Origin: a virus
Lineage: Duplodnaviria; Heunggongvirae; Uroviricota; Caudoviricetes
IMG/VR virus record: IMGVR_UViG_2751185836_000001
Length of the DNA stretch: 64,000 nt
Direction: 5' to 3' (one strand)
Position 1 is the first letter of the stretch; each line of letters starts with the position of its first letter. Position numbers and translations under genes: made by a program. Positions 14,820 through 56,501 of the stretch are shown here, one piece after another. The notes under the pieces were generated by a model. It did not search any database. It had not been told where the DNA came from and saw only the letters and a list, made by a program, of their open reading frames with translations.

Positions 14820-15044
14820 ATGGTTGCAAGAGGGCCTTTATATCTACAGAAAATGAGTGATGCACAACTCATCGAACACATGGAAATGGTTGAGGGTGTC
14901 AGGATATCTGGAAAGATATCAGAGCAGTTAAGAAATATCTGGGATGCCTGGTATGCTACCTCCGATCAGGCAGAGCTGGCAACGCTTTTCCGGGATACAT
15001 ATTTAGAGGCTGCATATCGGTTTTATCAAATAGTGCAAAAATAA
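14820..15044 (+). CDS. hypothetical protein
   Basis: RBS AAGGAGGAATAC. 74 aa. Confidence 0.45.
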   Translation: MVARGPLYLQKMSDAQLIEHMEMVEGVRISGKISEQLRNIWDAWYATSDQAELATLFRDTYLEAAYRFYQIVQK

Positions 15045-15084
15045 TAATATATCGATTATCATATAAGTAAAATGAAGGAGTATT

Positions 15085-15735: not shown

Positions 15736-16652
15736 TTTATGCATTGACAATGACGCAAAATCAGGCTTCTGTCTTTCAAAAAGCCTGCTCTGAATACGAA
15801 GAACTGAGGTGGAACAAATGGAAAGCATTTGTGGAAGATGTGGGAAGCTCTGTCGGACAAAGTACCAGAGAACAGGCCTTAGAGGCGTTTGAAGGGGCTA
15901 TGCGGACTGCGTTTGGAAACATACCGACAAGGCCCACGGATGAAATGGAACATGCATTTTCCTTATCTTTCTATATGATGCCCCAGCTTCTGGAGATGGA
16001 CGAAGATGATTATATTACACTGGAGATGGACCAGGATCAAACTGAATTCGTACAAATGGTTTTGGAGGAATACTTTCGTCTGCGTCTCAATCAGTGGTTC
16101 GACTTTGCTACAGAAGTAGCTTGTAATGGCTATGTCTACGACAAGGAAGACCCGGACAATGGCAAGAAGTTTTCCGCTTATATAAAACGGAGGGATGCCT
16201 CCAAAGATAAATTTGAAAAAGCCATGCAGATGCTCGTGCCAAGATACGGGCGGCAGACAGAAGACATGCTGATCGCTCAGGACATCTGGCAGGTCATCCG
16301 GTACAGGCTGTATCTGGACAAGGGAGGGGACCCAAACGGGGCTGTCGTGGACGCTCGTCCGCCTATGCAGATTTCGCAGGAGCCTCTCCCGGAGTTTATA
16401 CGCAAAAAAAAGGAGTATAGGATGGCAGATAAGGATGGTAATCGACAGCTCACGCTGGCAGAGAAATGGGCAATCGATGCCATGGCATATGAGTCCGGCG
16501 CAAAGGTAAAGACTGGAAAACAACCCTGCAATGGGTGTATGTACCAAATAAAGGGAGATGCGCTGCATTGCGGGATTTATACTAAAGAACGGAAACCAAA
16601 ACCTGTCCTGTTCGGGCATGAGAAGTGTCCTAAATACAGGGAGGAAAAATAA
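15733..16652 (+). CDS. hypothetical protein
   Basis: ATG overlaps the upstream stop (ATGA). 306 aa. The track start at 15681 lacks an RBS. Confidence 0.5.
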
Positions 16653-16653
16653 T

Positions 16654-17097
16654 ATGAGTAAACGTGGACTATCCGCCTTGAGAAAAGGTGTTATAATATT
16701 TCTCCTATTTGCCAGTATATTATCCGACGTGGGATGCAGAGTAGAAAGAGACTCCGTAGAGGAGCCTGACCATTTAACGCAAAGACAGGAGGAGCTACTG
16801 GAAGAAATGGGCCTCCCGACAGAGTATGACAGTCTCACGGACTCGCAGAAGAACGCGATCACATCCATTGAGGATTGCCTTACATATCTGGAGGACAAAT
16901 ATCACGAGGAATTCCGCTATCTGTCTTATGCGAAAGCAGGTCCGCTAGAAGAGGAGCATCTGGAGGCATATCCGGCGTCAGAAACACCATCAGATGTGGT
17001 AACAGTGTACCGGACGTATGAGGACGGAGAGTATCATTACGAAGATGATTACAATAACCAAGCGGGAAAGCTGCCACTGGTAACAGTGTGCAGATGA
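16654..17097 (+). CDS. putative lipoprotein with C-terminus supplied by IS-B left end
   Basis: RBS GGGAGGAAAAATAAT. N-terminus MSKRGLSALRKGVIIFLLFASILSDVGC is a signal peptide plus Cys. The last about 15 codons (DYNNQAGKLPLVTVCR*) lie inside the IS-B LE that starts after TTAC at 17049..17052. Confidence 0.5.
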   Translation: MSKRGLSALRKGVIIFLLFASILSDVGCRVERDSVEEPDHLTQRQEELLEEMGLPTEYDSLTDSQKNAITSIEDCLTYLEDKYHEEFRYLSYAKAGPLEEEHLEAYPASETPSDVVTVYRTYEDGEYHYEDDYNNQAGKLPLVTVCR

Positions 17098-17147
17098 TAG
17101 CGCAACTATTAGTAAAAGCATCATTGACTCACAAGAGGAACAGTAAC

Positions 17148-18623
17148 ATGGCGCGTACCCGAACAGACAGCTTTATACTCGAACTGAAATTGAAGACTTC
17201 CCCGGCTGATGTCGCATACCTGGAAAAGTGCTTCTCCGCGGGCCACAGTATCTACAATATACTGGTCAGGCACTGCCGTGGGCGGATCGCTTCCCTCCGG
17301 CAGGACCAGACCTACCGGGAACTGCTGGCTGAATACCGCACCCTGCAAGAAGGAAATGAACGCAAGGCCGTAGCAGAACGGTTAAAAGTCCTCGTCGCTG
17401 CCTATGGGCTGACAGAATACAGCCTCCATTCCTTTGTAAAAGGACAGCAGAAAAAGCATAAAAATTACATCAACAGCCTGGTGGCACAAAAGATCGCCTC
17501 GTCCGTCTGGAAAGGCGTGGAAAAAGTCCTATACGGGAACGGAAAGTTTTTGCACTTCCGGAAATATACAGAGTTTGTTTCCCTGGAAGGAAAGAACAAC
17601 AGCACCGGGTTTATTTTCCAGGACGGCATTTTAAAAGTGAACAGTAGGCCCATTTATGTGTCACGTCATAAGAGAGACGGGTCCACCTCCCGCTTGTATG
17701 AAGATGAAGCTTTAAAGCAACGCGTAAAATACTGCCGGCTGGTGCGCAGGCCGATCGGCTCCTCCTGGCATTATTATGTCCAATTAGTCCTGGAAGGGAC
17801 GGCACCCGTCAAACACAGACTTGGGAGTGGCCGGGCCGGCCTGGATATCGGGACTTCCACGGCGGCGGTGGCTACAAGGCAAGAATGTATCCTCACGGTG
17901 CTGGGGGAAAGTGTTGAGGACATCGAAAAAGAACAGCGCCGCCTGCTCCGGAAAATGGACCGGTCCCGCCGGGCCATGAACCCGTGGAACTATAACCCTG
18001 ACGGCACGGTCAGGAAGGGGCGGAAGAAATGGATCAACAGCGCCCATTACCGCAGGATGCGCATGGAATACGCCTCCCTTCGCCGGAAACGGGCGGCTGC
18101 CCTGAAGCAGTGGCAGGAAGCTATGGCAAACCGGATCGTAAGCCAATGCGACACCTTGTATGTGGAGAAGATGAACTTCAAAAGCCTGCAGAGGAGGGCA
18201 AAAACATCAAAAGTTAAGGAAAACGGGAAACACACCAGGAGGAAGCGGTTCGGGAAGAGCCTGCAGGCCCGTGCACCCGCCCAGTTCTGCCGAACGCTGA
18301 AACGGAAGCTGGAAGCCCTGGGCGGCCAATATCTGGAAGTGGATACCAGAGCCTTCCGGGCCAGCCAGTATGACCATGTAACTGATACCTATACAAAGAA
18401 AAAACTCTCCAGACGCCACAATATCATCGATGGACGGTGGGTCCAGAGAGACCTGTATTCCGCTTTCCTTTTGAGCAACAGCGCTGAAGACCTGGCCCAC
18501 GCGGACAGGGATCGCTGTAACGAAACATTTGACCTTTTCCTTAAGAACCACGACGCCTGCGTTGCCAAGATCCGTAACACGAAAACAAAGATACCACGCA
18601 GCTTTGGGTTCCAAGCTGCATGA
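17148..18623 (+). CDS. tnpB: TnpB-like RNA-guided endonuclease (OrfB) of IS element B; RuvC-I/II/III residues present, zinc-finger degenerate
   Basis: N-terminus MARTRTDSFILELKLKTS..LEKCFSAGHSIYNILV matches the TnpB N-terminal pattern. GLDIGTST is RuvC-I, LYVEKMNF is RuvC-II, QRDLYSAFLL is RuvC-III. The expected CxxC..CxxC is replaced by RAFRASQYDH. Confidence 0.75.
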   Translation: MARTRTDSFILELKLKTSPADVAYLEKCFSAGHSIYNILVRHCRGRIASLRQDQTYRELLAEYRTLQEGNERKAVAERLKVLVAAYGLTEYSLHSFVKGQQKKHKNYINSLVAQKIASSVWKGVEKVLYGNGKFLHFRKYTEFVSLEGKNNSTGFIFQDGILKVNSRPIYVSRHKRDGSTSRLYEDEALKQRVKYCRLVRRPIGSSWHYYVQLVLEGTAPVKHRLGSGRAGLDIGTSTAAVATRQECILTVLGESVEDIEKEQRRLLRKMDRSRRAMNPWNYNPDGTVRKGRKKWINSAHYRRMRMEYASLRRKRAAALKQWQEAMANRIVSQCDTLYVEKMNFKSLQRRAKTSKVKENGKHTRRKRFGKSLQARAPAQFCRTLKRKLEALGGQYLEVDTRAFRASQYDHVTDTYTKKKLSRRHNIIDGRWVQRDLYSAFLLSNSAEDLAHADRDRCNETFDLFLKNHDACVAKIRNTKTKIPRSFGFQAA

Positions 18624-18850
18624 TAAAACGGGACCCCGGGCCCGACTGAGTCCGATGCCGCGAATGGTGCCACCAGGTGCCTTGGCATGAAATTCCATGA
18701 TAGAACGGATAACTATAACAAACGGAGTGTCTTTCCCAAAAGGAAATGACAGCTTCCAGAGGAAGCCGCCATTTTCCGAGAGGACATTGCCCAAGTGATG
18801 TTATTTTGTTTTTGGAACCTCCCGCTGGTAACAGCGTGGAGAGCAGTCAG
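18624..18850 (+). ncRNA. predicted omega-RNA scaffold region of IS element B
   Basis: The 227-bp segment between the tnpB stop and the RE terminus is conserved in all B copies and in the MITE. It contains multiple hairpins (CCCGGGCCCG..., GAGGAAGCCGCC...). Flanks diverge exactly after CAGTCAG. Confidence 0.35.
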
Positions 18851-19264
18851 GGAAAGATAGGAGCAAAACCACTGTATGAGAGTAGGGTAAGAGAATATGC
18901 CACTCAATCTTTCCCAGATAGTGGAGTAAAGGTCTTCAGTGATATCAGAAATTCTGGGCAGGGTACAGATAGGCAAAGTGTGACGGAGGAAAATGTGCTC
19001 CAAAAAGTCTCGGCAGTCACATACATCTTTATCTCCGATACTGTATGCACCAAGGAGCAGTTCCAGGATTTTATTGAGGACTGCGCGAAGTGGATGGAAG
19101 GTCAGTGCCAGGGCGTGGCCGCACAGTTCTGTCTGAGGCTCACGGATGTGGCACAGTGGGAGACGATTTACATGTTCAATTATGAAGACAAGCTCAGGGA
19201 AGATATATTTTCGGCTGAGGCCGAGTGTGGGATAACCGCTGCCGGAGAAGTCACGATTTATTAA
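18851..19264 (+). pseudogene. hypothetical gene whose 5' end is replaced by the IS-B right end
   Basis: The reading frame is open from inside the RE through 19264. It has no in-frame ATG for about 80 codons after the IS boundary. The only candidate start is GTG at 18980 with a weak RBS. Confidence 0.25.
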
Positions 19265-19407
19265 CAGGGAAAGCAAATTTAATCAGAGGAGGAAGATTAA
19301 AAAGGCAATTAAATACATTAGCGATGCGGGTCCACAAGGAGCGTTCAGGAAGCGCTCAGTGGAAAGGCGTATCTAACGATGCCCCCTCATTCGCAAAGCA
19401 GGAATAA

Positions 19408-19653
19408 TTGCAGGAATTCCGTGAAGTAGCACTGGAGCGGGATGCCGCCAACACCTCTGAGGAAGAAGATGCGTATGAGTCGGCCGCATATGTGACAGTA
19501 TTTGTTTGCGAGAAGTGTGGAAGCACTTTAACTAATACGGAGCGGGTGGCAACGCATAAGGCCGAAACCGGGCATGAGATTTATCGTGTGGTAACTAAAA
19601 AGGTGGTCACGCAGGAAGAAGCGGCTTCAGGAGTGGATTATAATGCAAAGTGA
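19408..19653 (+). CDS. hypothetical small zinc-finger-like protein
   Basis: 81 aa with CEKCGSTL...HKAETGHEIY (C2H2-like). The only start is TTG just after the upstream stop; RBS weak. Confidence 0.3.
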   Translation: MQEFREVALERDAANTSEEEDAYESAAYVTVFVCEKCGSTLTNTERVATHKAETGHEIYRVVTKKVVTQEEAASGVDYNAK

Positions 19654-20161
19654 AAAAATCGTTTTTCTCGATATCGATGGGGTTCTTAATTATTGCGGTT
19701 GGTACGATGAGGTGAGAGGTTTATCCGGCTACCATGAGCTCTGTCCCCGGAAGCTGGCTCTGCTGAAGGAACTGATCGACCAGACGGGCGCGAAGATCGT
19801 GCTCTCGTCTTCCTGGCGGGACCTGGCAAAAGAAGGGAAGGGAGAACCTCACCCCATGTACAGATATCTGGTGGAGACACTGGGTGATTGCGGCCTAGAG
19901 ATCGTAGACCACACGCCGCATATTAACGATGACCGGCCCCGGGAGATACTGGAATGGATTAAAAGGAACGCAGGTAATCAGGCCAGGTTCATAAGTCTGG
20001 ATGACGACTTTTCGCTCCTGGACTATGAGCGGTACGGGATAGGCGACTGCCTGGTACGCACCTCCTTTTATGAGCCGGACGGGGGCCTGCGGCAGGAGCA
20101 TATCGAGAAAGCTGTCGGGATATTAAGCGGGAATATGCAGCAAGGAGGAAGCTTATCATGA
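19643..20161 (+). CDS. HAD-superfamily phosphatase-like protein
   Basis: IVFLDIDGVLN (HAD motif I DxDG), SSSWR (motif II), SLDDD (motif IV-like). Overlaps the upstream stop. Confidence 0.55.
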   Translation: MQSEKIVFLDIDGVLNYCGWYDEVRGLSGYHELCPRKLALLKELIDQTGAKIVLSSSWRDLAKEGKGEPHPMYRYLVETLGDCGLEIVDHTPHINDDRPREILEWIKRNAGNQARFISLDDDFSLLDYERYGIGDCLVRTSFYEPDGGLRQEHIEKAVGILSGNMQQGGSLS

Positions 20162-20409
20162 CAAAATTAAGTAGTGTGCGCTCTCTGGGAAAGAAACGGG
20201 TTGCGGTGCGGGTGCGACGGATTGGTGGGTCTAACAAGTACGAAGTCGTTCCAGGCAGCATCACGATGCTTTCGGGAGAGGTGAAAGTTGGCGAGAGGGA
20301 TGGAGCCCTAATTGTGGACGAGAACGGGGAGGCCATGCAGCCAACTGGGAAATTCCTGTGGACCGCTGAGACCATCGATCCATTTCATCTGGTCACAGAT
20401 TTTTTCTAA
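20158..20409 (+). CDS. hypothetical protein
   Basis: 83 aa. ATGA overlap with the HAD gene. Confidence 0.4.
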   Translation: MTKLSSVRSLGKKRVAVRVRRIGGSNKYEVVPGSITMLSGEVKVGERDGALIVDENGEAMQPTGKFLWTAETIDPFHLVTDFF

Positions 20410-20465
20410 GAGAATTCAAATTTACAGATAAAAGAGCTGCCATTTGGGCAGCTCTTTCTTTCAAT

Positions 20466-21890
20466 CTAATGAAGTTTAATAACATCGAATGGTCCGTCCC
20501 TCCATTTCTCATAAGGAGGAAGAGGCCTGGAAGATGTTCTTACTTTCTCCCTATAATACTGTCGAAGATCGTACTCCGATAACAATTCATCCCATCCAGG
20601 GAGTATCCCCCATGCTTTGGGAAGAGAATACTTGATGCGGCACTTCTCAAACTCCTGCGGAGTTAGGAGCAGGTCTATCAGATAATCGCCTTTGGTATTT
20701 TTAAGAAGTAATCTGACCTTATCTCCTTCCTCTTCGATGATCTTGGCCCATGTAATCTTTCGGAACCACTTCTCTGGATCCTCTTCTTCAGCAAGATATT
20801 TGAAAGAATATTGGTTAGAAGTCTTATCATGGACAAAGAACCCTCCGTATGTGAGGGTAAGTTGAGCCAGTGTCCGCATGGACACTTTTTCCTCTGGGGG
20901 CATTGAAGGCATCAAAGATAGTATCCTTCTGGGATCGATAGTCCGCTTTGACTGATAAACCTCCGACTTTGCACTCTCGATATCCTCTCTTGTGATAGGA
21001 TTAGGAGCTTCTCTCTCTTCCATCCATTCCTCATAGGAAAGATTAATCCCCAGATAAAGTCTTTCTTTTTCATAGGATTTTCTGAGGTGGTAATTGGCGT
21101 ATAACCTCAAACCCTTGTATCTAATGACTGCATCCTCAAACTCTTTCTGTGTGAGCATAAAGGTGTATCCGGTTTCGTTCGGGATATCTACTGCGATGAA
21201 CGAACCAGCCTCAGCAAGGATCTTGGCCCTTACTATCCTTGGACTATAAAAGACAGCTCCTCCGGGCTTTACGATGCCACAATAGAGGTCCCCTTCATAA
21301 TCCTTGATTACCTTCAACCCGCAAAGCAGTTTGTGGTGGGACAACGCCTCCATGGATAGGAGAACTTCCTTGCATTGGTACTGATTGTCTATGCCAGACT
21401 CTTCAGGCTCATCCAGCGGAATGGGCTCCCATTCTGACGGCATCCCATCCTCCAAGTTGCCGAGTTTGATCGACACATTGTCCGGTTTCACACACAGTAA
21501 CCCGTACAGGATCGTGTCCTCGCCATCATCTACACAAATCGGGTGGATCCCTTCTGTTTTAGACAGATCATTGCCCAGGGCCTTATAGAAACCAGTGATG
21601 GCGACTTTTACATTTTCCGTGATAGTTCCATCAGAAGCTACTGAAAGCTTGGTGGGCGCTTCTCTTGGAAAGCCAACTGTGAGGGTCATATACTGGTGTA
21701 CTGTGACCAAGTCCGCCAGTGACTCATACTGAGTACCGCATTTTTGACAGGTGTAAGGACCTGTTGTGTGGTCTTCATAAAAACCAATATGATTGATTGG
21801 TTTGCCCGCCCCATCACATATCACATCAGCCTGAAAGATCCGGGTCGCTTTAAACTCCGTTCCCCCACAGGGGCACATTCTTTTTTTCAT
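20466..21890 (-). CDS. hypothetical protein with N-terminal zinc-ribbon (CPCGG...CQKCG)
   Basis: 474-aa ORF on the minus strand with a terminator-like hairpin downstream (GAGCTGCCATTTGGGCAGCTC, rc, at ~20434..20460). Confidence 0.55.
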   Translation of the reverse strand: MKKRMCPCGGTEFKATRIFQADVICDGAGKPINHIGFYEDHTTGPYTCQKCGTQYESLADLVTVHQYMTLTVGFPREAPTKLSVASDGTITENVKVAITGFYKALGNDLSKTEGIHPICVDDGEDTILYGLLCVKPDNVSIKLGNLEDGMPSEWEPIPLDEPEESGIDNQYQCKEVLLSMEALSHHKLLCGLKVIKDYEGDLYCGIVKPGGAVFYSPRIVRAKILAEAGSFIAVDIPNETGYTFMLTQKEFEDAVIRYKGLRLYANYHLRKSYEKERLYLGINLSYEEWMEEREAPNPITREDIESAKSEVYQSKRTIDPRRILSLMPSMPPEEKVSMRTLAQLTLTYGGFFVHDKTSNQYSFKYLAEEEDPEKWFRKITWAKIIEEEGDKVRLLLKNTKGDYLIDLLLTPQEFEKCRIKYSLPKAWGILPGWDELLSEYDLRQYYREKVRTSSRPLPPYEKWRDGPFDVIKLH

Positions 21891-22086
21891 TGATTATTCC
21901 TCCTCTTATATAAATATTTCGCTGGAATATGACAAGAAAACCGATAACAAATACGTAGGTATGGGACGGGAAGTGTGGGAGGGCGGAACCAGGTTCCGCA
22001 AATATTTTTTTGCCTGCCTGAGAAAATAGGGGTTCTATAGTATCATGCTACAATACTGGTAAAGAAACAAAACGGAGGAGAAAACT

Positions 22087-29648: not shown

Positions 29649-29737
29649 ATTAGTAGTATAAAATCAAATACTCAAAGGAGGTGATCTTATTTATGCAGCC
29701 GATGTATTGGGTCCTGCTCTTTGTCTTGCTGACCCTT

Positions 29738-29851
29738 CGCTAGAGCACCGGATCCCCAGCATCTGGACCAGAAGCGCTTTTATTGCCACGGTCGGGTCCG
29801 TCTCCCTGGAAACAGTTAAAGCATACATTGACTCACAGAAGGAACAGTAAA
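29738..29851 (+). pseudogene. tnpA: 3' remnant of IS200-type tnpA (last ~37 codons)
   Basis: Encodes ...PSLEHRIPSIWTRSAFIATVGSVSLETVKAYIDSQKEQ*, identical to the C-terminus of the intact TnpA at 53971..54366. Confidence 0.5.
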
Positions 29852-31327
29852 ATGGCACGTACCCGAACAGACAGCTTTATACTTGAACTGAAATTGAAGA
29901 CTTCCCCGGAGGATGCCGCGTACCTGGCAAAGTGCTTCTTCGCGGGCCACGGTATCTACAATATACTGGTCAGGCACTGCCGCAGGCGGATCGCTTCCCT
30001 CCGGCAGGACCAAGCCTACCGGGAACTGCTGGCTGAATACCGCACCCTGAAAGACGAAAACGAACGCAAGGCCGTATCAGAGCAGTTAAAGGCCATCGTC
30101 GCGTCCTATGGGCTGACGGAATACAGCCTCCATTCCTTTGTGAAAGTACAGCAGAAAAAGCACAAAAAATATATCAACAGCCTGGTGGCACAAAAGATCG
30201 CCTCTTCCGTCTGGAAAGGTGTAGAAAAAGTCCTATACGGGAATGGAAAGCTTTTGCATTTTCGAAAATATACGGAGTTTGTTTCCCTGGAAGGAAAGAA
30301 CAACAGCACAGGGCTCATTTTCCAGGACGGCATTTTAAAAGTAAACGGGCGGCCTGTTTATGTGTCACGTCATAAGAGAGACGGGTCCACTTCCCGCTGG
30401 TATGAAGATGAAGCTTTAAAGCACCGCGTAAAATACTGCCGGCTGGTGCGCAAGCCTGTCGGCTCCTCTTGGCATTATTATGTTCAATTAGTCCTGGAGG
30501 GGACAGCACCCGTCAAACACAGCCTTGGGAGTGGTCGGGCCGGCTTGGATATCGGGACTTCCACGGCGGCGATGGCTACAAGGCAAGAATGTATCCTCAC
30601 GGTGCTGGGGGAAAGTGTTGAGGACATCGAAAAAGAACAGCGCCGCCTGCTCCGGAAAATGGACCGGTCCCGCCGGGCCATGAACCCGTGGAACTATAAC
30701 CCTGACGGCACGGTCAGGAAGGGACGGAAGAAATGGATCAACAGCGCCCATTACCGCAGGATGCGCATGGAATACGCCTCCCTTCGCCGGAAACGGGCGG
30801 CTGCCCTGAAGCAGTGGCAGGAAGCTATGGCAAACCGGATCGTAAGCCAATGCGACACCCTGTATGTGGAGAAAATGAACTTCAAAGCCCTGCAGAGGCG
30901 GGCAAAACCATCATCGGTCAAGGAAAACGGAAAACACACCAGGAGGAAACGGTTTGGGAAGAGCCTGCAGACCCGGGCCCCAGCCCAGTTCTGCCGGACA
31001 CTGAAACGGAAACTGGAAGCCCTGGGCGGCCAATACCTGGAAGTGGATACCAGAGCCTTCCGGGCCAGCCAGTATGACCATGTAACTGATACCTATACAA
31101 AGAAAAAACTCTCCAGACGCCACAATATCATAGATGGACGGTGGGTCCAGAGAGACCTGTATTCCGCTTTCCTTTTGAGCAACAGCGCTGAAGACCTGGC
31201 CCACGCGGACCGGGATCGCTGTAATGAAACATTCAACCTTTTCCTTAAGAACCACGACGCCTGCGTTGCCAAGATCCGTAACACGAAAACAAAGATACCA
31301 CGCAGCTTTGGGTTCCAGGCTGCATGA
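29852..31327 (+). CDS. tnpB: TnpB-like RNA-guided endonuclease of IS element B
   Basis: About 93% identical to the 17148..18623 and 54368..55843 proteins. ATG immediately after the tnpA remnant stop. Confidence 0.75.
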   Translation: MARTRTDSFILELKLKTSPEDAAYLAKCFFAGHGIYNILVRHCRRRIASLRQDQAYRELLAEYRTLKDENERKAVSEQLKAIVASYGLTEYSLHSFVKVQQKKHKKYINSLVAQKIASSVWKGVEKVLYGNGKLLHFRKYTEFVSLEGKNNSTGLIFQDGILKVNGRPVYVSRHKRDGSTSRWYEDEALKHRVKYCRLVRKPVGSSWHYYVQLVLEGTAPVKHSLGSGRAGLDIGTSTAAMATRQECILTVLGESVEDIEKEQRRLLRKMDRSRRAMNPWNYNPDGTVRKGRKKWINSAHYRRMRMEYASLRRKRAAALKQWQEAMANRIVSQCDTLYVEKMNFKALQRRAKPSSVKENGKHTRRKRFGKSLQTRAPAQFCRTLKRKLEALGGQYLEVDTRAFRASQYDHVTDTYTKKKLSRRHNIIDGRWVQRDLYSAFLLSNSAEDLAHADRDRCNETFNLFLKNHDACVAKIRNTKTKIPRSFGFQAA

Positions 31328-31554
31328 TAAAACGGGACCCCGGGCCCGACTGAGTCCGATGCCGCGAATGGTGCCAACAGGTGCCTTGGCATGAAATTCC
31401 ATGATAGAACGGATAACTATAACAAACGGAGTGTCTTTTCAAACAGAAAATGACAGCTTCCAGAGGAAGCCGCCATTTTCCGAGAGGACATTGCCTAAGT
31501 GATGTTATCTTGTTCCCGGAACCTCCCGCTGGTAACAGCGTGGAGAGCAGTCAG
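31328..31554 (+). ncRNA. predicted omega-RNA scaffold region of IS element B
   Basis: Same conserved 227-bp RE as 18624..18850. Confidence 0.35.
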
Positions 31555-35391: not shown

Positions 35392-35544
35392 GCGGGGAAG
35401 GAGATATTATAAAGATGAGTAACGATACTTGGGTCTTGATTGAACATAACCTAAGCACGTAATCCCCTTCCTCGACAGGGGGGGAGTGCTTCGCTACCTG
35501 CCAAAGCTATCATGGCAATGTTGTCCATTGTCTACCAGTTTACT

Positions 35545-35595
35545 GTTGTTATCTTGTTTCAGGAACCTCCCGCTGGCAGCGTGGAGAGCAGTCAG
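35545..35595 (+). mobile_element. solo fragment of IS-B right end
   Basis: GTTGTTATCTTGTTTCAGGAACCTCCCGCTGGCAGCGTGGAGAGCAGTCAG matches the terminal about 50 bp of the B RE (one indel in the hairpin). Confidence 0.4.
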
Positions 35596-35756
35596 GCTGC
35601 TTCGGATTTTGCATATGGAAGAAATGGTATTTTCTGTTCTGCTGGCATATTATTTGTTTTGCCCGGGATGGGCTTGCATAAAATAAGCGGAAGGAACTAA
35701 TTTCCTTCCGTTTTTCCATGTTCCTTCGAAAGAAAAAGAAGAGGAGGAACACAAAA

Positions 35757-41208: not shown

Positions 41209-42534
41209 ATGAAACTCATCTCCACATATAGTGTGAAACTAAAAGAATACAGACATATCTTCAAAGACACCATCCGAGTGTACCGTGCAGCGGTAGACTT
41301 CTTTCTCATGGTCTGTGACCAGGAATGGGAGAAAGTCTCTGACATCAGTACATCAAAATTTCAGATGACGTTTATAGAACAGCTCACACATAAAACAGCA
41401 AAAAATCCGGCCACAAAATATGATTTTGATGCAGTCTTTTATAAGTTTCCCTCTTACCTACGTCGAGCAGCCATTTATGAGACTTTAGGTAAATACTTTT
41501 CCTATCGATCCAACCTGGCAAACTGGGAAAGGGATCCGCAGGGGCGGAAACCTTCCTTCCCTAAAGCGGGATACGTGTATCCCTGTCTGTACCGGGATGG
41601 CATGTACGAGCGGACAGATATATACACAGCTCGGATCAAGGTCTATATCCGCAATACCTGGGACTGGATCGATATTAAACTTCGTAAAAGTGATGTGGAT
41701 TACATCCAACGTCACTGCTCCCACAGAAAGGAGTGTGCCCCCACTCTCCAGAAAAGGGGAAAAGAATGGTTCCTGGACTTTCCTTTTGAGGAACAGGTTA
41801 CATTGAACAACACACCTTCCAAAGAGCAGGTGATCGCTGCCGTGGACCTTGGCATCAACAGCGCCGCCACGGTTTCCGTTATGCGCGCGGATGGCACTGT
41901 CCTGGGCCGGCATTTCTGTCGGCTTCCCAGAGAAAAAGACTCTCTTGCGCATGCGGTGAACCGGGTCAAAAAAGCACAGCAGCACGGAGCCAGGAAAATG
42001 CCCCGCTTATGGGCACGGGCGAACGGCATCAATGACGATATCGCGGTCAAAACAGCAAGGTTTATCATTGAGGTGGCCGTCCTTTATAACGCGGATGTGA
42101 TCGTGTTCGAGCACCTGGACCTGAAGGGTCGGAAGCGCGGCTCCAAAAAGCAGCGTCTCCACTTATGGAAAGCCCGCCGTGTCCAGTCCATCGTAACGGA
42201 CCAAGCCCACCGTCTTGGTATGCGCGTCAGCCATGTCAACGCCTGGAACACCAGCCGCCTTGCCTTCGATGGCAGCGGGCGCGTCCTCCGGGGCCGGCAG
42301 TCTGAAAAGACGGGTGGCTCCTACAGCGTATGCGAGTTCCAGAACGGAAAGGTCTATAACTGCGACCTGAACGCCACCTATAACATAGGGGCGAGATACT
42401 TTATCCGGACACTCTTAAAATCCTTGCCGGCAACGGAGAGGTTGGCCGTGGAGGCAAAAGTCCCTTCATGCGCTAAGAGAAGCACCTGCACCTTATCCAC
42501 GCTTACTAGCCTGTACGCGGTCCTGGCGGCTTAA
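41209..42534 (+). CDS. tnpB: TnpB (OrfB) RNA-guided endonuclease of IS element A
   Basis: 441 aa. C-terminal NAWNTSRLAFDGSG...CDLNATYNIGARYF carries the TnpB RuvC-III D.NAA.NI signature. Confidence 0.8.
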   Translation: MKLISTYSVKLKEYRHIFKDTIRVYRAAVDFFLMVCDQEWEKVSDISTSKFQMTFIEQLTHKTAKNPATKYDFDAVFYKFPSYLRRAAIYETLGKYFSYRSNLANWERDPQGRKPSFPKAGYVYPCLYRDGMYERTDIYTARIKVYIRNTWDWIDIKLRKSDVDYIQRHCSHRKECAPTLQKRGKEWFLDFPFEEQVTLNNTPSKEQVIAAVDLGINSAATVSVMRADGTVLGRHFCRLPREKDSLAHAVNRVKKAQQHGARKMPRLWARANGINDDIAVKTARFIIEVAVLYNADVIVFEHLDLKGRKRGSKKQRLHLWKARRVQSIVTDQAHRLGMRVSHVNAWNTSRLAFDGSGRVLRGRQSEKTGGSYSVCEFQNGKVYNCDLNATYNIGARYFIRTLLKSLPATERLAVEAKVPSCAKRSTCTLSTLTSLYAVLAA

Positions 42535-45087: not shown

Positions 45088-45768
45088 ATGGTAAAAGAAA
45101 TAAAGGGTGACCTGTTAAAGGCGGGCACATATTACATCGCACATCAGGTGAACTGCCGCGGCAAGATGGGGGCCGGCGTGGCCTACCAGATCAGGCGGCA
45201 TGTATTGGGAGAGAGAGGGTACAACGACTACCGTGCCGTGTGCCGGAACAAGTCTCCCGAGAAGCTGCTCGGGACCAATCAGTATTACCCGGTCAAGGGT
45301 GGCCAGGTGGTCGTGAACATGTTCGGGGAGGATATCCCCACTGGCACGGAGAACGACACGGATTATGAAGCTCTCCAGAAGTGTCTGGAGAACCTGAAGC
45401 ACTCCATGGAAAGAGGGCACAGGGACGCTTCCATTCCCGGATACTTAGGCTGTGGCCTTGCCGGCGGATGCTGGGACTATGTTTACACGTCCATCATACT
45501 GCCGATCTTCAAGGATAGCAACCAGACCCTGTATATCATTTACAGGGATGACAGCATTCTCAAGCTCTGGAACGAGTTCCAGGATGTCCCCTGTACCAGG
45601 GGAGGGGCAATCTCGGAAAGCTGGCACGGCTTTGAAATCTTCACCGATACCTTTCTTATCTGGAAATGGTTCGAGGAGACGTTTGACCTGAGCGTCCGGA
45701 GGGATCTACTGAAAGAGAGGGACGACCTCACGCCGCTCTTTACACATCCTTTATCATCCGTTTCCTGA
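45088..45768 (+). CDS. macro-domain (ADP-ribose-binding/processing) protein; stop codon lies in MITE terminus
   Basis: GDLLKAGTYYIAHQVNCRGKMGAGVAYQI and GCGLAGGCW match macro-domain motifs (VNAAN..GGGV, TG.YG). RBS AAAGGAGGAATACGAT. Confidence 0.55.
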   Translation: MVKEIKGDLLKAGTYYIAHQVNCRGKMGAGVAYQIRRHVLGERGYNDYRAVCRNKSPEKLLGTNQYYPVKGGQVVVNMFGEDIPTGTENDTDYEALQKCLENLKHSMERGHRDASIPGYLGCGLAGGCWDYVYTSIILPIFKDSNQTLYIIYRDDSILKLWNEFQDVPCTRGGAISESWHGFEIFTDTFLIWKWFEETFDLSVRRDLLKERDDLTPLFTHPLSSVS

Positions 45769-46162
45769 CTGCTCTCCACGCTGTTACCAGCGGGAGGTTC
45801 CATAAACAAGATAACATCACTTAGGCAGTTCTCTCTCGGAAAATGGCGGGGTCCTCTGGAAGCCGCCGTTTCCTTTTTATGAAGACACTCCGTTTGTTAT
45901 AGTTATCTGTTCTATCATGGAATTTCATGCCAAGGCACCTGTTGGCACCATTCGCGGCATCGGACTCAGTCGGGCCCGGGGTCCCATTTTATTATACAGT
46001 CTGGAACCCAAAACTGCGGGTATCATAATGTAGTTCTATTATAATATAAAACGAAGAAAAATGCAAACGTATGTTCTTATTTCCGCTTTTCTTACAAGCC
46101 ATGCGAGAGTTTCGCTTTCATCTGCACACTGTTACCAGTGGCAGCTTTCCCGCTTGGTTATT
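45765..46162 (-). mobile_element. MITE/PATE derived from IS element B (LE joined to RE, no ORFs)
   Basis: The rc of 46118..46162 equals the B left end (AATAACCAAGCGGGAAAGCTGCCACTGGTAACAGTGTGCAG), with flanking GTAA as the rc of target TTAC. 45765..45990 is the rc of the 227-bp B right end. The ~130-bp interior matches the tnpA promoter region of copy 3. Confidence 0.6.
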
Positions 46163-46247
46163 GTAAAGACATCCCCGGCAGTCCCGGGGGTGTTTTTTTC
46201 ATAGACTTTTACAAGCGAAAAAGGAGCGGGAGACCGCTCCTTCCTCT

Positions 46248-53766: not shown

Positions 53767-53970
53767 CAAGGAAAGGAGAATAGCTATGACGGCTTTCGAG
53801 GTATATTACAATAACTAAGTGGGAAAGCTGCCACTGGTAACAGTGTGCAGATGAAAGAGCAACTCTCGCAAGGCTTGTAAGAAAAAAAAGAAGGTACCAA
53901 ACATATGTTTGTATTTTTCTTCGTTTCATATTATAATAGAACTATATTATAAATCTAGTGGAGTTATCCT

Positions 53971-54366
53971 ATGACAAAATACTACCGTACCCCTCATTTG
54001 GTTTATGACTGTAAATACCATGTCATATTCTGTCCCAAGTACCGGCGCGGTATTCTGATAAACGGGCTGGATGAACTGGTGAAATCAGTATTCCTTAAGA
54101 TCGCGGAACAGAAGAACTTTCAAATCGTCGAGATGGAAGTTATGCCGGATCATGTCCATTTGCTGATATCCTGTAACCCGCGTTTTGGCATCATGAATTG
54201 CGTCCGAGCCTTAAAGCGGTATTCCGCCGCACCCATGCGGGAGTTTGACCCTTCGCTAGAGCACCGGATCCCCAGCATCTGGACCAGAAGCGCTTTTATT
54301 GCCACGGTCGGGTCCGTCTCCCTGGAAACAGTTAAAGCATACATTGACTCACAGAAGGAACAGTAA
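53971..54366 (+). CDS. tnpA: IS200/IS605-family Y1 (HUH) transposase TnpA
   Basis: YHVIFCPKYRRGIL, HVHLLIS (HuH), and catalytic Tyr region RALKRYSAA. 131 aa. Confidence 0.8.
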   Translation: MTKYYRTPHLVYDCKYHVIFCPKYRRGILINGLDELVKSVFLKIAEQKNFQIVEMEVMPDHVHLLISCNPRFGIMNCVRALKRYSAAPMREFDPSLEHRIPSIWTRSAFIATVGSVSLETVKAYIDSQKEQ

Positions 54367-54367
54367 A

Positions 54368-55843
54368 ATGGCACGTACCCAAACAGACACCTTTATACTC
54401 GAACTAAAATTGAAGACTTCCCTGGCGGATGCCGCGTACCTGGCAAAGTGCTTCTCCGCGGGCCAGGGTATCTACAATATACTGGTCAGGCACTGCCGCA
54501 GGCGGATCGCTTCCCTCTGGCAGGACCAGACCTACCGGGAACTGCTGGCTGAATATCGCACCCTGAAAGACGGAAACGAGCGCAAGGCCGTATCAGAGCG
54601 GTTAAAAGTCCTCGTAGCGGCCTATGGGCTGACGGAATACAGCCTCCATTCCTTTGTGAAAATCCAGCAGAAAAAGCATAAAAAATACATCAACAGCCTG
54701 GTGGCGCAAAAGATTGCCTCTTCCGTCTGGAAAGGTGTAGAAAAAGTCCTATACGGGAATGGAAAGCTTTTGCGTTTCCGAAAATATACAGAGTTTGTTT
54801 CCCTGGAAGGAAAGAATAACAGCACAGGGCTCATTTTCCAGGACGGCATTTTAAAAGTAAACGGGCGACCTATTTATGTGTCACGTCATAAGAGAGACGG
54901 GTCCACTTCCCGCTGGTATGAAGATGAAGCTTTAAAGCACCGCATAAAATACTGCCGGCTGGTGCGCAAGCCTGTCGGCTCCTCTTGGCATTATTATGTT
55001 CAATTAGTCCTGGAGGGGACAGCACCCGTCAAACACAGGCTTGGGAGTGGCCGGGCCGGCCTGGATATCGGGACTTCCACGGCGGCGGTTGCTACAAAGC
55101 AAGAGTGTATCCTCACGGTGCTGGGGGAAAGCGTTGAGGATATCGAAAAAGAACAGCGCCGGCTGCTCCGGAAAATGGACCGGTCCCGCCGGGCTATGAA
55201 CCCGCAGAACTATAACCCCGACGGCACGGTCATGAAGGGGCGGAAGAAATGGATCAGCAGTGCCCATTACCGCAGGATGCGCATGGAATACGCCTCCCTC
55301 TGCCGGAAACGGGCGGCGACCCTGAAGCAATGGCAGGAGGCTATGGCAAACCAGATCGTAAGCCAATGTGACACCTTGTATGTGGAGAGGATGAACTTCA
55401 AAGCTCTGCAGAGGCGGGCAAAAACATCACCTGTCAAGGAAAATGGGAAACACACCAGGAGGAAACGGTTTGGGAAGAGCCTGCAGACCCGAGCCCCAGC
55501 CCAGTTCTGCCGGACCCTGAAACGGAAACTGGAAGCCCTGGGCGGCCAATATCTGGAAGTGGATACCAGAGCCTTCCGGGCCAGCCAGTATGACCATGTG
55601 ACTGATACCTACACAAAGAAAAAGCTCTCCAGACGCCACAACATCATAGATGGTCGGTGGGTCCAGAGAGACCTGTATTCCGCTTTCCTTTTGAGCAACA
55701 GCGCAAAAGACCTGGCCCACGCGGACCGGGATCGCTGTAATGAAACATTCAACCTTTTCCTTAAGAACCACGACGCCTGCGTCGCCAAGATCCGTAACAC
55801 AAAAATTAAGATACCCCGCAGCTTTGGGTTCCAGGCTGCATAA
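54368..55843 (+). CDS. tnpB: TnpB-like RNA-guided endonuclease of IS element B
   Basis: ATG 1 nt after the tnpA stop. 491 aa. Same motifs as 17148..18623. Confidence 0.75.
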   Translation: MARTQTDTFILELKLKTSLADAAYLAKCFSAGQGIYNILVRHCRRRIASLWQDQTYRELLAEYRTLKDGNERKAVSERLKVLVAAYGLTEYSLHSFVKIQQKKHKKYINSLVAQKIASSVWKGVEKVLYGNGKLLRFRKYTEFVSLEGKNNSTGLIFQDGILKVNGRPIYVSRHKRDGSTSRWYEDEALKHRIKYCRLVRKPVGSSWHYYVQLVLEGTAPVKHRLGSGRAGLDIGTSTAAVATKQECILTVLGESVEDIEKEQRRLLRKMDRSRRAMNPQNYNPDGTVMKGRKKWISSAHYRRMRMEYASLCRKRAATLKQWQEAMANQIVSQCDTLYVERMNFKALQRRAKTSPVKENGKHTRRKRFGKSLQTRAPAQFCRTLKRKLEALGGQYLEVDTRAFRASQYDHVTDTYTKKKLSRRHNIIDGRWVQRDLYSAFLLSNSAKDLAHADRDRCNETFNLFLKNHDACVAKIRNTKIKIPRSFGFQAA

Positions 55844-56069
55844 AAAATAGGACCCCGGGCCCGACTGAGTCCGATGCCGCGAATGGTGCCAACAGGTGCC
55901 TTGGCATGAAATTCCATGATAGAACAGATAACTATAACAAACGGAATGTCTTCTTAAAAAAGAAAAGACGGCTTCCAGAGGAACCCGTCATTTCCTGAGA
56001 AGACATTGCCTAAGTGATGTTATCTTGTTCTCGGAACCTCCCGCTGGTAACAGCGTGGAGAGCAGTCAG
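55844..56069 (+). ncRNA. predicted omega-RNA scaffold region of IS element B
   Basis: Conserved RE, as 18624..18850. Confidence 0.35.
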
Positions 56070-56087
56070 GAAAAATACAACAACATC

Positions 56088-56501
56088 ATGAAGTGGCTCC
56101 CGGAGGTGCTGGAGAAGGAGTTCAGGACCATAGACAAATATGGTCACCTTCTTGAGAACCATATCAACAAGAGTGATGAGTTCCTGATGCGAAGGAGCGC
56201 CAGGAAAAAGATCAATGCCTCTACCTTTGTGGGAAATGAGCATGAAATCGTGGCCCACATCCATAAGGAACTCATAGCCAAAGCTGAAATGATCGCGGAG
56301 TACCTGGCGGACGATGGGTACGGAAGCGACGATTATGAGTTAGAGTGTGATCTGGGACTTCTACAGGGGAAGACCTATCTGTATGACGCCAATCAACACG
56401 ATTGGAAGGATGGCCCAAAGTCATGCAGCAAGTTCTTTATCATCATAAAGAAAGGGAGGAGTACCAACCATTTCTTTATAAAATCAGTATATCCTTGCTA
56501 G
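56088..56501 (+). CDS. hypothetical protein
   Basis: First ATG after the IS-B RE end. 137 aa. Confidence 0.4.
   Translation: MKWLPEVLEKEFRTIDKYGHLLENHINKSDEFLMRRSARKKINASTFVGNEHEIVAHIHKELIAKAEMIAEYLADDGYGSDDYELECDLGLLQGKTYLYDANQHDWKDGPKSCSKFFIIIKKGRSTNHFFIKSVYPC

What the first reader, a model, noticed from the sequence alone, without database searches (positions are those of the whole stretch)
53810..56069. IS200/IS605 element B: one complete tnpA+tnpB copy, two tnpA-less copies, a MITE and an RE fragment; its TnpB-like protein is large (491 aa) with a degenerate zinc finger
Copy 53810..56069 carries a Y1 transposase (HVHLL HuH motif) and a 491-aa TnpB-like protein in a translationally coupled pair (TAA-A-ATG). 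Copies 17053..18850 (LE fused directly upstream of tnpB) and 29738..31554 (LE and about 70% of tnpA deleted) are non-autonomous. The LE and RE both carry the GTAA-loop hairpin (CACTGGTAACAGTG / CGCTGGTAACAGCG). All LE junctions follow TTAC (17049, 53806, and the rc at 46163), an IS608-like target/TAM. All RE copies end ...GAGAGCAGTCAG with flanks diverging at that exact base, defining a 227-bp conserved 3' region that should encode the omega-RNA scaffold. Guide sequences would be the 16-20 nt after each RE. The nuclease keeps the RuvC D/E/D positions (GLDIG, VEKMN, RDLYSA) but the usual CxxC..CxxC zinc finger is replaced (RAFRASQYDH). The insertions also rewrite host genes: the lipoprotein 16654..17097 ends inside the LE, the SPFH gene 31554 starts at the RE terminus with GTG, and the macro-domain gene ends inside the MITE terminus.
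Basis: partly seen in the sequence, partly recalled or inferred. Interest (0 to 1): 0.6.

Follow-up and report, generated by a model that had tools for sequence, protein, structure and literature searches.

The report
IS608-like transposon with zinc-finger-less TnpB
This is an ordinary IS200/IS605-type jumping gene, present as one complete copy, two defective copies, one miniature copy and one remnant; its one unusual trait is that its predicted RNA-guided nuclease (TnpB) belongs to a large, little-studied branch that has lost the usual zinc finger.

Summary
Window 53810..56069 is a complete IS200/IS605 element. It has a Y1/HUH transposase (131 aa) and a 491-aa TnpB-like gene, with subterminal bulged-T hairpins at both ends. 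The left end abuts TTAC and the right end stops at ...GGAGAGCAGTCAG. Four derivatives are present: 17053..18850, about 29730..31554, a 398-bp miniature copy at 45765..46162 (-) and a 52-nt right-end remnant at 35544..35595.

Gut-metagenome contigs carry the uninterrupted 270-aa host gene with the empty site GATGATTAC|GGAAAGATAGG. This shows precise insertion 3' of TTAC with no duplication.

The TnpB-like protein has a confident TnpB/Cas12f fold. D233 and E340 are invariant and D435 nearly so. None of 63 diverse relatives has a CxxC..CxxC zinc finger. The three copies evolve under dN/dS of about 0.15.

The roughly 260 nt from the end of tnpB to the right end fold into a structure with strong covariation, which is also found in relatives with only 35-48% identical TnpB. 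This fits an omega-RNA scaffold.

The family is large and spread across Bacillota. It includes ISCbt1 of C. botulinum phage c-st and a gene on B. anthracis pXO1. Loss of the zinc finger in some TnpB branches is already published.

Verdict: a new member of a known kind. Nuclease activity and RNA expression are untested.

The parts
53806..53809 (+). TTAC target tetranucleotide next to the left end; predicted TAM of the nuclease
   Evidence: TTAC precedes the left end in 3 window copies and in relatives across the family. It is retained in the empty allele.
53810..53970 (+). Left end (LE). 18 nt, ending in AAAG (53824-53827), lead to hairpin 53828-53850 (CTGC-CACTG-GTAA-CAGTG-T-GCAG). An AT-rich, probable tnpA promoter region follows.
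   Evidence: Alignment A2; DNA fold. The geometry matches IS608 LE (TTAC 19 nt from the hairpin foot, guide AAAG; PMC3201880). No consensus promoter was scored.
53971..54366 (+). tnpA, a Y1/HUH transposase of 131 aa
   Evidence: PF01797 E=9e-35 and NF033573 133 bits; HVH at residues 61-63 and Tyr124.
54368..55843 (+). tnpB-like gene, 491 aa. RuvC residues D233, E340, D435. The TNB region (about 400-433) has no Zn-binding cysteines.
   Evidence: NF040570 scores 61.7 bits, below its cutoff of 100. AF2 pLDDT 94. Foldseek matches TnpB, Cas12f and Cas12p. Family alignment. dN/dS 0.14-0.18.
55810..56069 (+). Predicted omega-RNA scaffold of about 260 nt (last ~33 nt of tnpB plus the 226-nt right end). 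The right-end tip holds GAAC 56034-56037, hairpin 56038-56060 and tail AGCAGTCAG 56061-56069.
   Evidence: Fold z-score -5.8. 55 pairs, 16 of them with compensatory changes. A covariance model of the 5' 105 nt finds distant relatives; 22 of 26 pairs covary. The miniature copy keeps exactly this stretch.
56070..56089 (+). Predicted guide of the complete copy (flanking host DNA, GAAAAATACAACAACATCAT)
   Evidence: Flanks diverge at this base in all copies. That this stretch acts as a guide is inferred from the TnpB/omega-RNA paradigm.
17053..18850 (+). tnpA-less copy. The left end (17053-17107) is fused about 40 nt upstream of an intact tnpB (17148-18623), and the right end is complete. It interrupts a 270-aa host gene (16654-17052 and 18851-19264).
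   Evidence: Uninterrupted 270-aa homologues and the empty-site DNA.
29730..31554 (+). Copy lacking the left end and about 70% of tnpA, so it cannot move. tnpB (29852-31327) is intact and the right end is complete.
45765..46162 (-). 398-bp miniature element: the first ~141 nt of the left end joined to the last ~265 nt (omega-RNA region and right end). It is flanked by TTAC (46166-46163, - strand).
   Evidence: A compensatory C>T/G>A change in helix 2 keeps the pairing.
35544..35595 (+). Solo right-end remnant (GAAC, hairpin with a shortened loop, then AGCAGTCAG), preceded by TTAC at 35540-35543

Best explanation
Element B is an IS608-like member of the IS200/IS605 family, carried by a gut Lachnospiraceae-type genome.

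Transposition (inferred mechanism): the Y1 transposase TnpA recognises the bulged-T hairpins near both ends on the top strand. It cuts 3' of TTAC at the left end and 3' of TCAG at the right end, using the tetranucleotides AAAG and GAAC just 5' of the hairpins as internal guides. It then reinserts the single-stranded circle 3' of another TTAC without duplicating the target. The precise insertion is shown here; the rest follows from established IS608 biochemistry.

Nuclease (inferred mechanism): the 491-aa second gene is a TnpB-type RuvC nuclease of a large Bacillota clade that has lost the four zinc-binding cysteines but keeps the fold and the D-E-D triad. The last ~33 nt of tnpB plus the right end are transcribed into a structured omega-RNA of about 260 nt. 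Its 3' extension into flanking DNA (16-20 nt) would serve as the guide. The RNA-protein complex should cut the empty site, TTAC followed by the flank sequence, after excision, so that the element is restored by recombination (the transposon-retention or homing model).

Status of each copy: copy c17 and the 398-bp miniature copy can be mobilised in trans. Copy c29 is immobile but still encodes a TnpB under selection. The miniature copy would supply an extra guide RNA.
For: Identity and ends:
- Y1 transposase hits.
- TTAC|left end and right end|flank boundaries in 5 window copies and 9 close relatives.
- Hairpins with an extrahelical T, at 18 and 9 nt from the cleavage points, against 19 and 10 in IS608 (PMC3201880).
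- Empty allele GATGATTAC|GGAAAGATAGG in contigs L103 and L104, and uninterrupted 270-aa homologues at 79-91% identity.
- The TTAC/AAAG and GAAC/TCAG pairs recur in relatives from Trichococcus, Lysinibacillus, Anoxybacillus, Clostridia and phage c-st ISCbt1.

Nuclease:
- AF2 pLDDT 94.2.
- Foldseek finds ISDra2 TnpB, ISFba1 TnpB (TM-score 0.70 normalised by target length), Cas12f, Cas12p and Cas12m at E of 1e-10 to 1e-14.
- A profile alignment places QRDLYSAF on DRDLNAA of RdCas12n.
- D233 and E340 are present in 63/63 and D435 in 62/63.
- tnpA lies directly upstream in 52 of 80 related genomic loci.
- dN/dS is 0.14-0.18 among the three paralogues.

RNA:
- MFE z-score -5.8.
- 97.4% of cells are paired against about 40% in slid controls, with 16 compensatory pairs and G-U pairs that only work on the + strand.
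- The covariance model hits sit right at the tnpB stop codon in relatives with 35-48% identical TnpB; 22 of 26 pairs covary.
- The right end diverges 4-10% against 11-19% at fourfold-degenerate sites.
Against: - There are no expression or cleavage data.
- The protein scores below the curated thresholds of the TnpB models: NF040570 61.7 against 100 bits, and PF01385 20.5 against 30.5 bits.
- It lacks the zinc finger that pipelines use to define canonical TnpB (PMC12781874).
- No consensus sigma-70 promoter was scored in the element.
- The covariation alignment A9 was fitted to the model, which inflates pairing somewhat.
- A5 holds essentially two lineages, so it records few independent events.
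Confidence: 0.8

Rival explanations
1. The TnpB-like protein is no longer an RNA-guided nuclease. After losing the zinc finger it would be a nuclease-dead or binding-only factor (like TldR or Cas12m), or only a transposition regulator.
For: No zinc-finger cysteines in any of 63 relatives. HMM scores are below threshold. No biochemical study of this clade was found in the held library.
Against: The RuvC D-E-D triad is essentially invariant. The gene sits in mobile, multi-copy elements next to tnpA, unlike the immobilised nuclease-dead relatives described in PMC10691335. Selection is strongly purifying. The TNB region is still modelled confidently as a beta-hairpin.
Confidence: 0.12
2. The conserved 226-260 nt at the 3' end is kept only as DNA for TnpA (right-end recognition), or as a stabilising or terminating mRNA 3' UTR. 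It would not be a guide-RNA scaffold.
For: The terminal hairpin and its covariation (helix 8) are explained equally well by TnpA binding to single-stranded DNA. Rfam has no matching family.
Against: IS608 TnpA needs only about 45-56 nt of the right end (PMC3201880). Here four further helices, up to 260 nt from the tip, covary and contain G-U pairs specific to the sense strand. The miniature copy retains exactly this block. Conservation stops at the exact transposon boundary, as in known omega-RNAs.
Confidence: 0.06
3. The copies are decaying relics of an extinct element with no current function.
For: The copies differ by 5-9%. One has lost its left end and two have lost tnpA. A short remnant exists.
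Against: All three tnpB ORFs are intact with dN/dS of about 0.15. The complete copy has intact tnpA and both ends. Elements whose TnpB is at least 94% identical (where the gene lies on the contig) and whose right end is at least 90% identical sit at four further, different sites in other gut metagenomes. Alleles of the host gene without the insertion coexist in the population.
Confidence: 0.05

Closest known systems
IS608 (Helicobacter pylori), the IS200/IS605 paradigm
   Same: Y1/HUH TnpA followed by tnpB. TTAC target on the left flank. AAAG guide tetranucleotide 5' of the left hairpin. Imperfect hairpins with an extrahelical T. Cleavage sites about 19 and 10 nt from the hairpin feet (18 and 9 here). 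No target duplication (PMC3201880).
   Different: The right cleavage site and its guide are TCAG/GAAC instead of TCAA/GAAT; the GAAT guide is recalled from memory and was not seen in the text read. The last position changes on both sides. The TnpB is about 90 aa longer, has no zinc finger and is hardly alignable by sequence.
ISCbt1 of Clostridium botulinum phage c-st (OrfA and OrfB; OrfB annotated as similar to pXO1-20)
   Same: Same TnpB clade (37.5% identity over 98% of the protein). Same OrfA-OrfB order. Same TTAC...AAAG-hairpin left end and GAAC-hairpin-AGTGTCAG right end.
   Different: A distant member with a different host and replicon (phage). This is the only named IS of the clade that I could find.
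ISDra2 TnpB with its omega/reRNA (Deinococcus radiodurans; PDB 8H1J, 8EXA)
   Same: Same fold (Foldseek E=7e-14) and the same RuvC D-E-D triad. The guide RNA is encoded across the 3' end of tnpB and the right end, with the guide lying in flanking DNA. The TAM equals the transposon's target motif.
   Different: 408 aa with a C4 zinc finger and TAM TTGAT. Here the protein is 491 aa and the four cysteine positions appear to be replaced by D409, T412, N424 and D427; this mapping is my own reading of the alignment. Extra conserved loops lie at about residues 277-299 and 348-368. The predicted TAM is TTAC.
TnpB branches lacking the C4 zinc finger in the Altae-Tran et al. 2023 census (PMC10691335), for example RIIIr-4
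   Same: Family-wide loss of the zinc finger. The clade also occurs on phages and plasmids.
   Different: RIIIr-4 is described as having the RuvC-III Asp replaced by His, whereas here the Asp is kept (62/63). The exact branch name could not be determined because the supplement is not held.
PATE/MITE derivatives of IS200/IS605 elements
   Same: The 398-bp copy keeps only the left end plus the right-end/omega-RNA block and is flanked by TTAC.
   Different: Nothing notable. It would act as a free-standing guide-RNA gene only if transcribed.

Membership tests
IS200/IS605 family (IS608-like) | Y1 HUH single-strand transposase | tested here: met
   PF01797 E=9e-35 and NF033573 133 bits against a cutoff of 55; HVH 61-63 and Tyr124.
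IS200/IS605 family (IS608-like) | No terminal inverted repeats; subterminal imperfect hairpins at both ends on the same strand | tested here: met
   Both ends carry 23-nt hairpins with a GTAA loop and a bulged T. They are conserved and covary in relatives.
IS200/IS605 family (IS608-like) | Insertion 3' of a specific tetranucleotide without target-site duplication | tested here: met
   The empty allele GATGATTAC|GGAAAGATAGG equals the left flank plus the right flank of copy 17053..18850. TTAC is found at all left ends.
IS200/IS605 family (IS608-like) | Cleavage sites recognised through guide tetranucleotides 5' of the hairpin feet | tested here: inconclusive
   The sequence pattern is present and conserved (AAAG with TTAC; GAAC with TCAG). 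The base-pairing function was not tested.
IS200/IS605 family (IS608-like) | Strand-specific single-stranded DNA excision and integration | not testable with these tools
   Needs in vitro or in vivo transposition assays.
TnpB (OMEGA RNA-guided nuclease) | RuvC-like D-E-D catalytic triad | tested here: met
   D233 and E340 are invariant and D435 is present in 62/63. They align to the RuvC motifs of solved TnpB/Cas12n chains.
TnpB (OMEGA RNA-guided nuclease) | TnpB/Cas12f-type overall fold (a WED-REC-RuvC-TNB domain layout is expected but was not mapped here) | tested here: met
   AF2 pLDDT 94.2 and pTM 0.85. Foldseek top hits are Cas12p, ISDra2 TnpB, ISFba1 TnpB and Cas12f.
TnpB (OMEGA RNA-guided nuclease) | C4 zinc finger (CxxC..CxxC) between RuvC-II and RuvC-III | tested here: not met
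   No Zn-ribbon/TNB Pfam hit. None of 63 relatives has the cysteine pairs; the motif is [KR]ASQY[ND]H...QRDLYSAF.
TnpB (OMEGA RNA-guided nuclease) | Passes the curated family HMM thresholds | tested here: not met
   NF040570 61.7 bits against 100; NF038281 23.5 against 425; PF01385 20.5 against 30.5.
TnpB (OMEGA RNA-guided nuclease) | Structured guide-RNA scaffold spanning the tnpB 3' end and the right end, stopping at the transposon boundary | tested here: met
   Covariation in A5 and A9; sharp boundary. Expression was not tested.
TnpB (OMEGA RNA-guided nuclease) | RNA-guided, TAM-dependent DNA cleavage | not testable with these tools
   Needs biochemical or interference assays.
Nuclease-dead TnpB derivatives (TldR-type regulators) | Loss of RuvC catalytic residues and loss of mobility, with a fixed genomic partner | tested here: not met
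   The triad is conserved. The gene is multi-copy, linked to tnpA and found at variable sites.
TnpB clade RIIIr-4 (Altae-Tran 2023) | No C4 zinc finger AND the RuvC-III Asp replaced by His | tested here: not met
   The zinc finger is absent, but D435 is retained in 62/63. The definition comes from PMC10691335.
IStron (group I intron fused to an IS605/IS607 element) | Group I intron at the 5' end | tested here: not met
   No Rfam family reaches its gathering score anywhere in the window. The left end is only about 160 nt.

The most novel reading that the evidence does not exclude
The zinc-finger-less, roughly 490-aa clade may be more than a sequence variant and could be a mechanistically distinct class of OMEGA nuclease. 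In TnpB and Cas12f the zinc-bound TNB domain helps feed the target strand into the RuvC site. Here it is replaced by a cysteine-free module with its own invariant residues (A405, S406, Q407, Y408, H410, K417, R423) and two clade-specific loops. The enzyme might therefore cut differently, for example by nicking, by acting on single-stranded DNA only, or by a different metal dependence. It would have a 4-nt TTAC TAM and has been systematically missed by mining pipelines that require the zinc ribbon.
Probability: 0.12. Interest if true: 0.6.

Novelty: new member of a known kind. Interest (0 to 1): 0.3.

Why it matters
As transposon biology this is routine: one more IS608-like element that disrupts genes in a gut bacterium.

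Its value is as a clean, well-delimited natural example of a large TnpB clade. The clade forms more than 600 clusters at 50% identity (at E<=1e-30), is spread across Bacillota, and is also found on pXO1 and on clostridial and Geobacillus phages. It has no zinc finger. RefSeq often labels it 'hypothetical protein' or plain 'transposase'. TnpB-mining pipelines that demand the four cysteines filter it out.

The window supplies what a direct test would need: the exact RNA scaffold limits, a predicted TAM (TTAC), four natural guide sequences, and a verified empty target site. Showing activity would establish that the zinc finger is dispensable for TnpB function, and it would open a new pool of editors that use a 4-nt TAM.

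Tried and rejected
- phmmer of the single protein against PDB sequences gave nothing. Only the family profile reached TnpB/Cas12 chains.
- Rfam at gathering thresholds gave no hit in the window, so there is no curated omega-RNA or group I intron match.
- The sigma-70 consensus scan found no promoter in the element.
- The supplement of Altae-Tran 2023 is not held, so the clade's branch label could not be fixed. RIIIr-4 was considered and rejected because Asp435 is kept.
- Literature searches for experiments on zinc-finger-less TnpB, for ISCbt1, and for a TTAC-TAM TnpB of this type returned nothing relevant.
- My first regular-expression scan for right-end termini failed for a technical reason, greedy matching. 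It was redone.
- A search for self-targets of the five predicted guides in the window (up to 3 mismatches) found only the native flanks.
- Comparison with the window's other TnpB (41209..42534) showed no useful similarity (BLASTP E=0.003 over 47 aa; hhalign probability 2.5%). The two elements are therefore unrelated lineages.
- The nuclease-dead and relic readings were considered and scored low. See the rival explanations.
Full report
1. What is in the sequence

The stretch 53810..56069 holds two tightly packed genes on the + strand. The first is 53971..54366 (131 aa) and the second is 54368..55843 (491 aa). They are separated by TAA-A-ATG. The first is an unambiguous IS200-type Y1/HUH transposase (Pfam PF01797, E=9e-35; NCBIfam NF033573, 133 bits against a cutoff of 55). 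Its HVH motif is at residues 61-63 and a C-terminal Tyr lies at 124.

- 29730..31554, 94.5% identical to 54246..56069.
- 17048..17107 plus 17111..18855, where the left end is fused just upstream of tnpB.
- An inverted miniature copy made of a left-end piece (46166..46025) and a right-end piece (46029..45761).
- A short right-end fragment near 35544..35596.

All three tnpB reading frames are intact at 491 aa.

2. The ends

In the three places where a left end exists, homology starts immediately after TTAC (alignment A2). In five window copies, and in nine relatives fetched from gut metagenomes, homology stops at ...GGAGAGCAGTCAG. The next bases are unrelated (A1 and A4).

Both ends carry a 23-nt hairpin with a GTAA loop and one bulged T:
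- Left: CTGC-CACTG-GTAA-CAGTG-T-GCAG.
- Right: CTCC-CGCTG-GTAA-CAGCG-T-GGAG.

The left hairpin foot is 18 nt from the TTAC cut and is preceded by AAAG. The right hairpin is preceded by GAAC and followed by 9 nt ending in TCAG.

This is the IS608 layout. [quoted passage not shown] IS608's right pair is TCAA with GAAT; the GAAT guide is from my own recollection and was not seen in the text read. Against that pair, TCAG with GAAC here changes the last position on both sides. That is what the guide-cleavage pairing rule predicts.

3. Proof of precise insertion

The ORF that runs into the left end of copy 17053..18850 (16654..17052) and the ORF that emerges from its right end (18851..19264) are in the same frame. 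Joined, they give a 270-aa protein.

A database search finds uninterrupted 270-aa homologues at 91, 90, 84 (Lachnoclostridium phocaeense) and 79% identity, colinear across the junction. The DNA of two such contigs reads GAAGATGATTAC|GGAAAGATAGGTGCAAAACC. This is exactly the left flank plus the right flank, with TTAC kept once and nothing duplicated.

The 'rewritten lipoprotein' is therefore an interrupted gene. The complete copy likewise splits an ORF after its eighth codon (53786..53809 | 56070..56501).

The miniature copy (45765..46162, - strand) landed on the stop codon of the 226-aa gene 45088..45768. The old TCG TAA became TCC TGA, so the protein is unchanged.

4. The second protein

It scores below the curated thresholds of the TnpB models (NF040570 61.7 against 100 bits; PF01385 20.5 against 30.5 bits). 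It has no Zn-ribbon/TNB hit and no PDB hit by single-sequence search.

It nevertheless heads a large family:
- More than 3,500 clusters at 90% identity.
- 2,451 clusters at 50% identity with E<=1e-3, and 661 with E<=1e-30.
- At least 569 loci in species-representative genomes, nearly all Bacillota: Lachnospiraceae, Trichococcus, Anoxybacillus, Bacillus, Lysinibacillus, Clostridium and others.

In a 63-sequence alignment spanning 33-79% identity to the window protein, D233 and E340 are invariant and D435 is present in 62/63. No sequence has CxxC..CxxC. Instead the family shares [KR]ASQY[ND]H...Y.KK.LS.R...[VI]QRDLYSAFL.

A profile search of PDB sequences aligns these motifs to the RuvC-I, -II and -III motifs of a designed TnpB-like nuclease (9YYG) and of RdCas12n (9J09, DRDLNAA). 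Reading that alignment, the four cysteine positions appear to correspond to D409, T412, N424 and D427.

AlphaFold2 with this alignment gives pLDDT 94.2 and pTM 0.85. Foldseek against the PDB returns Cas12p, ISDra2 TnpB, ISFba1 TnpB (TM-score 0.70 normalised by target length), Cas12f, Cas12m, LaTranC and Fanzor2 at E of 1e-9 to 1e-14.

The three paralogues differ at dS 0.17-0.27 but dN 0.03, giving dN/dS of 0.14-0.18. In 52 of 80 related genomic loci a Y1 tnpA lies directly upstream on the same strand. The protein is thus a transposon-borne TnpB with an intact catalytic triad. It is not a nuclease-dead derivative.

5. The 3' non-coding block

The 270 nt ending at CAGTCAG fold far better than shuffled sequence (z = -5.8). 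In 13 sequences (window copies plus relatives whose TnpB, where on the contig, is 76-97% identical) RNAalifold predicts 55 pairs. Of all cells, 97.4% are paired, against 38-44% when the partners are slid. Sixteen pairs carry compensatory changes, and several G-C/G-U alternations only make sense for an RNA of the + strand.

The first helix lies in the last codons of tnpB. It is kept in the miniature copy through a double change (C>U with G>A).

A covariance model of the 5'-most 105 nt, which avoids the TnpA hairpin, finds matches placed exactly at the tnpB stop codon. They occur in relatives with only 35-48% protein identity: Eubacterium oxidoreducens, Trichococcus, Desulfosporosinus, Jeotgalibaca, Lysinibacillus and Metalysinibacillus, with E of 1e-5 to 5e-4. 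On that alignment 22 of 26 pairs covary and 97.8% of cells pair. The alignment was fitted to the model, so this is somewhat inflated, but the slid controls stay near 40%.

The right end also diverges about half as fast as fourfold-degenerate sites (4-10% against 11-19%). Together with the razor-sharp boundary, this is what an omega-RNA scaffold of about 260 nt (55810..56069) looks like. Rfam has no model for it.

6. Family-wide rules

Comparing multi-copy relatives defines their ends. Each time, the left end follows TTAC with AAAG before the hairpin, and the right end reads GAAC-hairpin-AG(N3-4)TCAG.

Strict pattern scans find this right end 160-266 nt (one outlier at 422 nt) after the stop codon in 38 of 102 loci, and the left-end pattern in 25 of 97 loci. 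Both sets include ISCbt1 of C. botulinum phage c-st. The predicted TAM, TTAC, is therefore a clade property.

Members also occur on B. anthracis pXO1 (annotated 'hypothetical protein'), B. cereus and B. thuringiensis plasmids, Geobacillus virus E3 and C. difficile phages.

7. Mechanism

Shown here:
- The element's anatomy.
- Precise TTAC-targeted insertion.
- Selection on tnpB.
- A conserved structured 3' block.

Inferred from IS608 biochemistry and the ISDra2/TnpB paradigm:
- TnpA excises and inserts the top strand.
- TnpB loaded with the right-end-derived RNA cuts the TTAC-flanked empty site to restore the element.
- Copy c17 and the miniature copy can be mobilised in trans.
- Copy c29 (no left end) is fixed in place but may still supply nuclease and a guide.

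8. Comparison with what is known, and novelty

The element is IS608-like at its ends, and ISCbt1-like in its TnpB. Loss of the C4 zinc finger 'in some large TnpB branches' was already reported in the 2023 TnpB/Cas12 census (PMC10691335). The one zinc-finger-less clade described in that text, RIIIr-4, has His in place of the RuvC-III Asp. That is not the case here, so I cannot name the branch.

TnpB-mining pipelines define canonical TnpB by the Zn ribbon and four cysteines (PMC12781874), which would exclude this clade. I found no biochemical study of it in the held library.

Verdict: a correct and careful first-stage reading of a new member of a known kind. It is modestly interesting as a ready-made test case for whether TnpB works without its zinc finger.

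Noticed in passing
window 35540..35595 (+): A solo right-end remnant. TTAC is followed directly by only the last ~52 nt of the right end (GAAC, hairpin, AGCAGTCAG). The hairpin loop is shortened from GTAA to G. It looks like an old insertion that lost everything but the tip.
   Followed up: partly
window 45761..45768 and 46163..46166: The miniature copy inserted into the TTAC that overlaps, on the other strand, the TAA stop of the 226-aa gene 45088..45768. The element's terminus supplies a new TGA, so the protein sequence is unchanged. The gene's likely terminator hairpin is now 400 bp away.
   Followed up: yes
L085 915..940 (gut metagenome contig OGPH01000341.1); also the hairpin loops at window 53837..53840 and 56047..56050: The GTAA loops of both hairpins read TTAC on the bottom strand, which is the element's own target. 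In relative L085 the left flank is the reverse complement of a right-end tail up to that loop (CTGACTGCTCTCCACACCT-TTAC). This suggests insertion into the loop of another, inverted copy. The rest of that older copy is not present after the right end.
   Followed up: partly
window 41209..42534 (+): A second, unrelated TnpB gene (441 aa) with weak OrfB_IS605 and Cas12f1-like TNB (zinc-ribbon) Pfam hits. It has no useful sequence similarity to the 491-aa protein.
   Followed up: partly
Because this copy has lost its left end, the original 5' end of the gene cannot be reconstructed from the window.
   Followed up: no
window 15000..22000 versus L103..L105: The window is syntenic with gut-metagenome contigs that lack the insertion. 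Their neighbours include an Endonuclease_NS_2 protein, an AAA ATPase and the same 474-aa ORF as window 20466..21890 (-). The window also encodes a RecD2-like helicase, an ImpB/UmuC polymerase, an HNH endonuclease and a 1235-aa CAP-domain protein, which hints at a mobile island.
   Followed up: no
L048, L049, L067, L070, L072, L079 (Bacillota genomes): In several distant relatives the TTAC-AAAG-hairpin left end lies only 110-200 nt upstream of tnpB. These are tnpA-less copies built like window copy 17053..18850, so this deletion form recurs across the clade.
   Followed up: no
L101 (B. anthracis Sterne pXO1, 147238..148734): The pXO1 homologue (37% identical, full length) is annotated only as 'hypothetical protein' in RefSeq. 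It lies next to a site-specific integrase gene, and no annotated tnpA appears in the 1.5-kb flanks.
   Followed up: no
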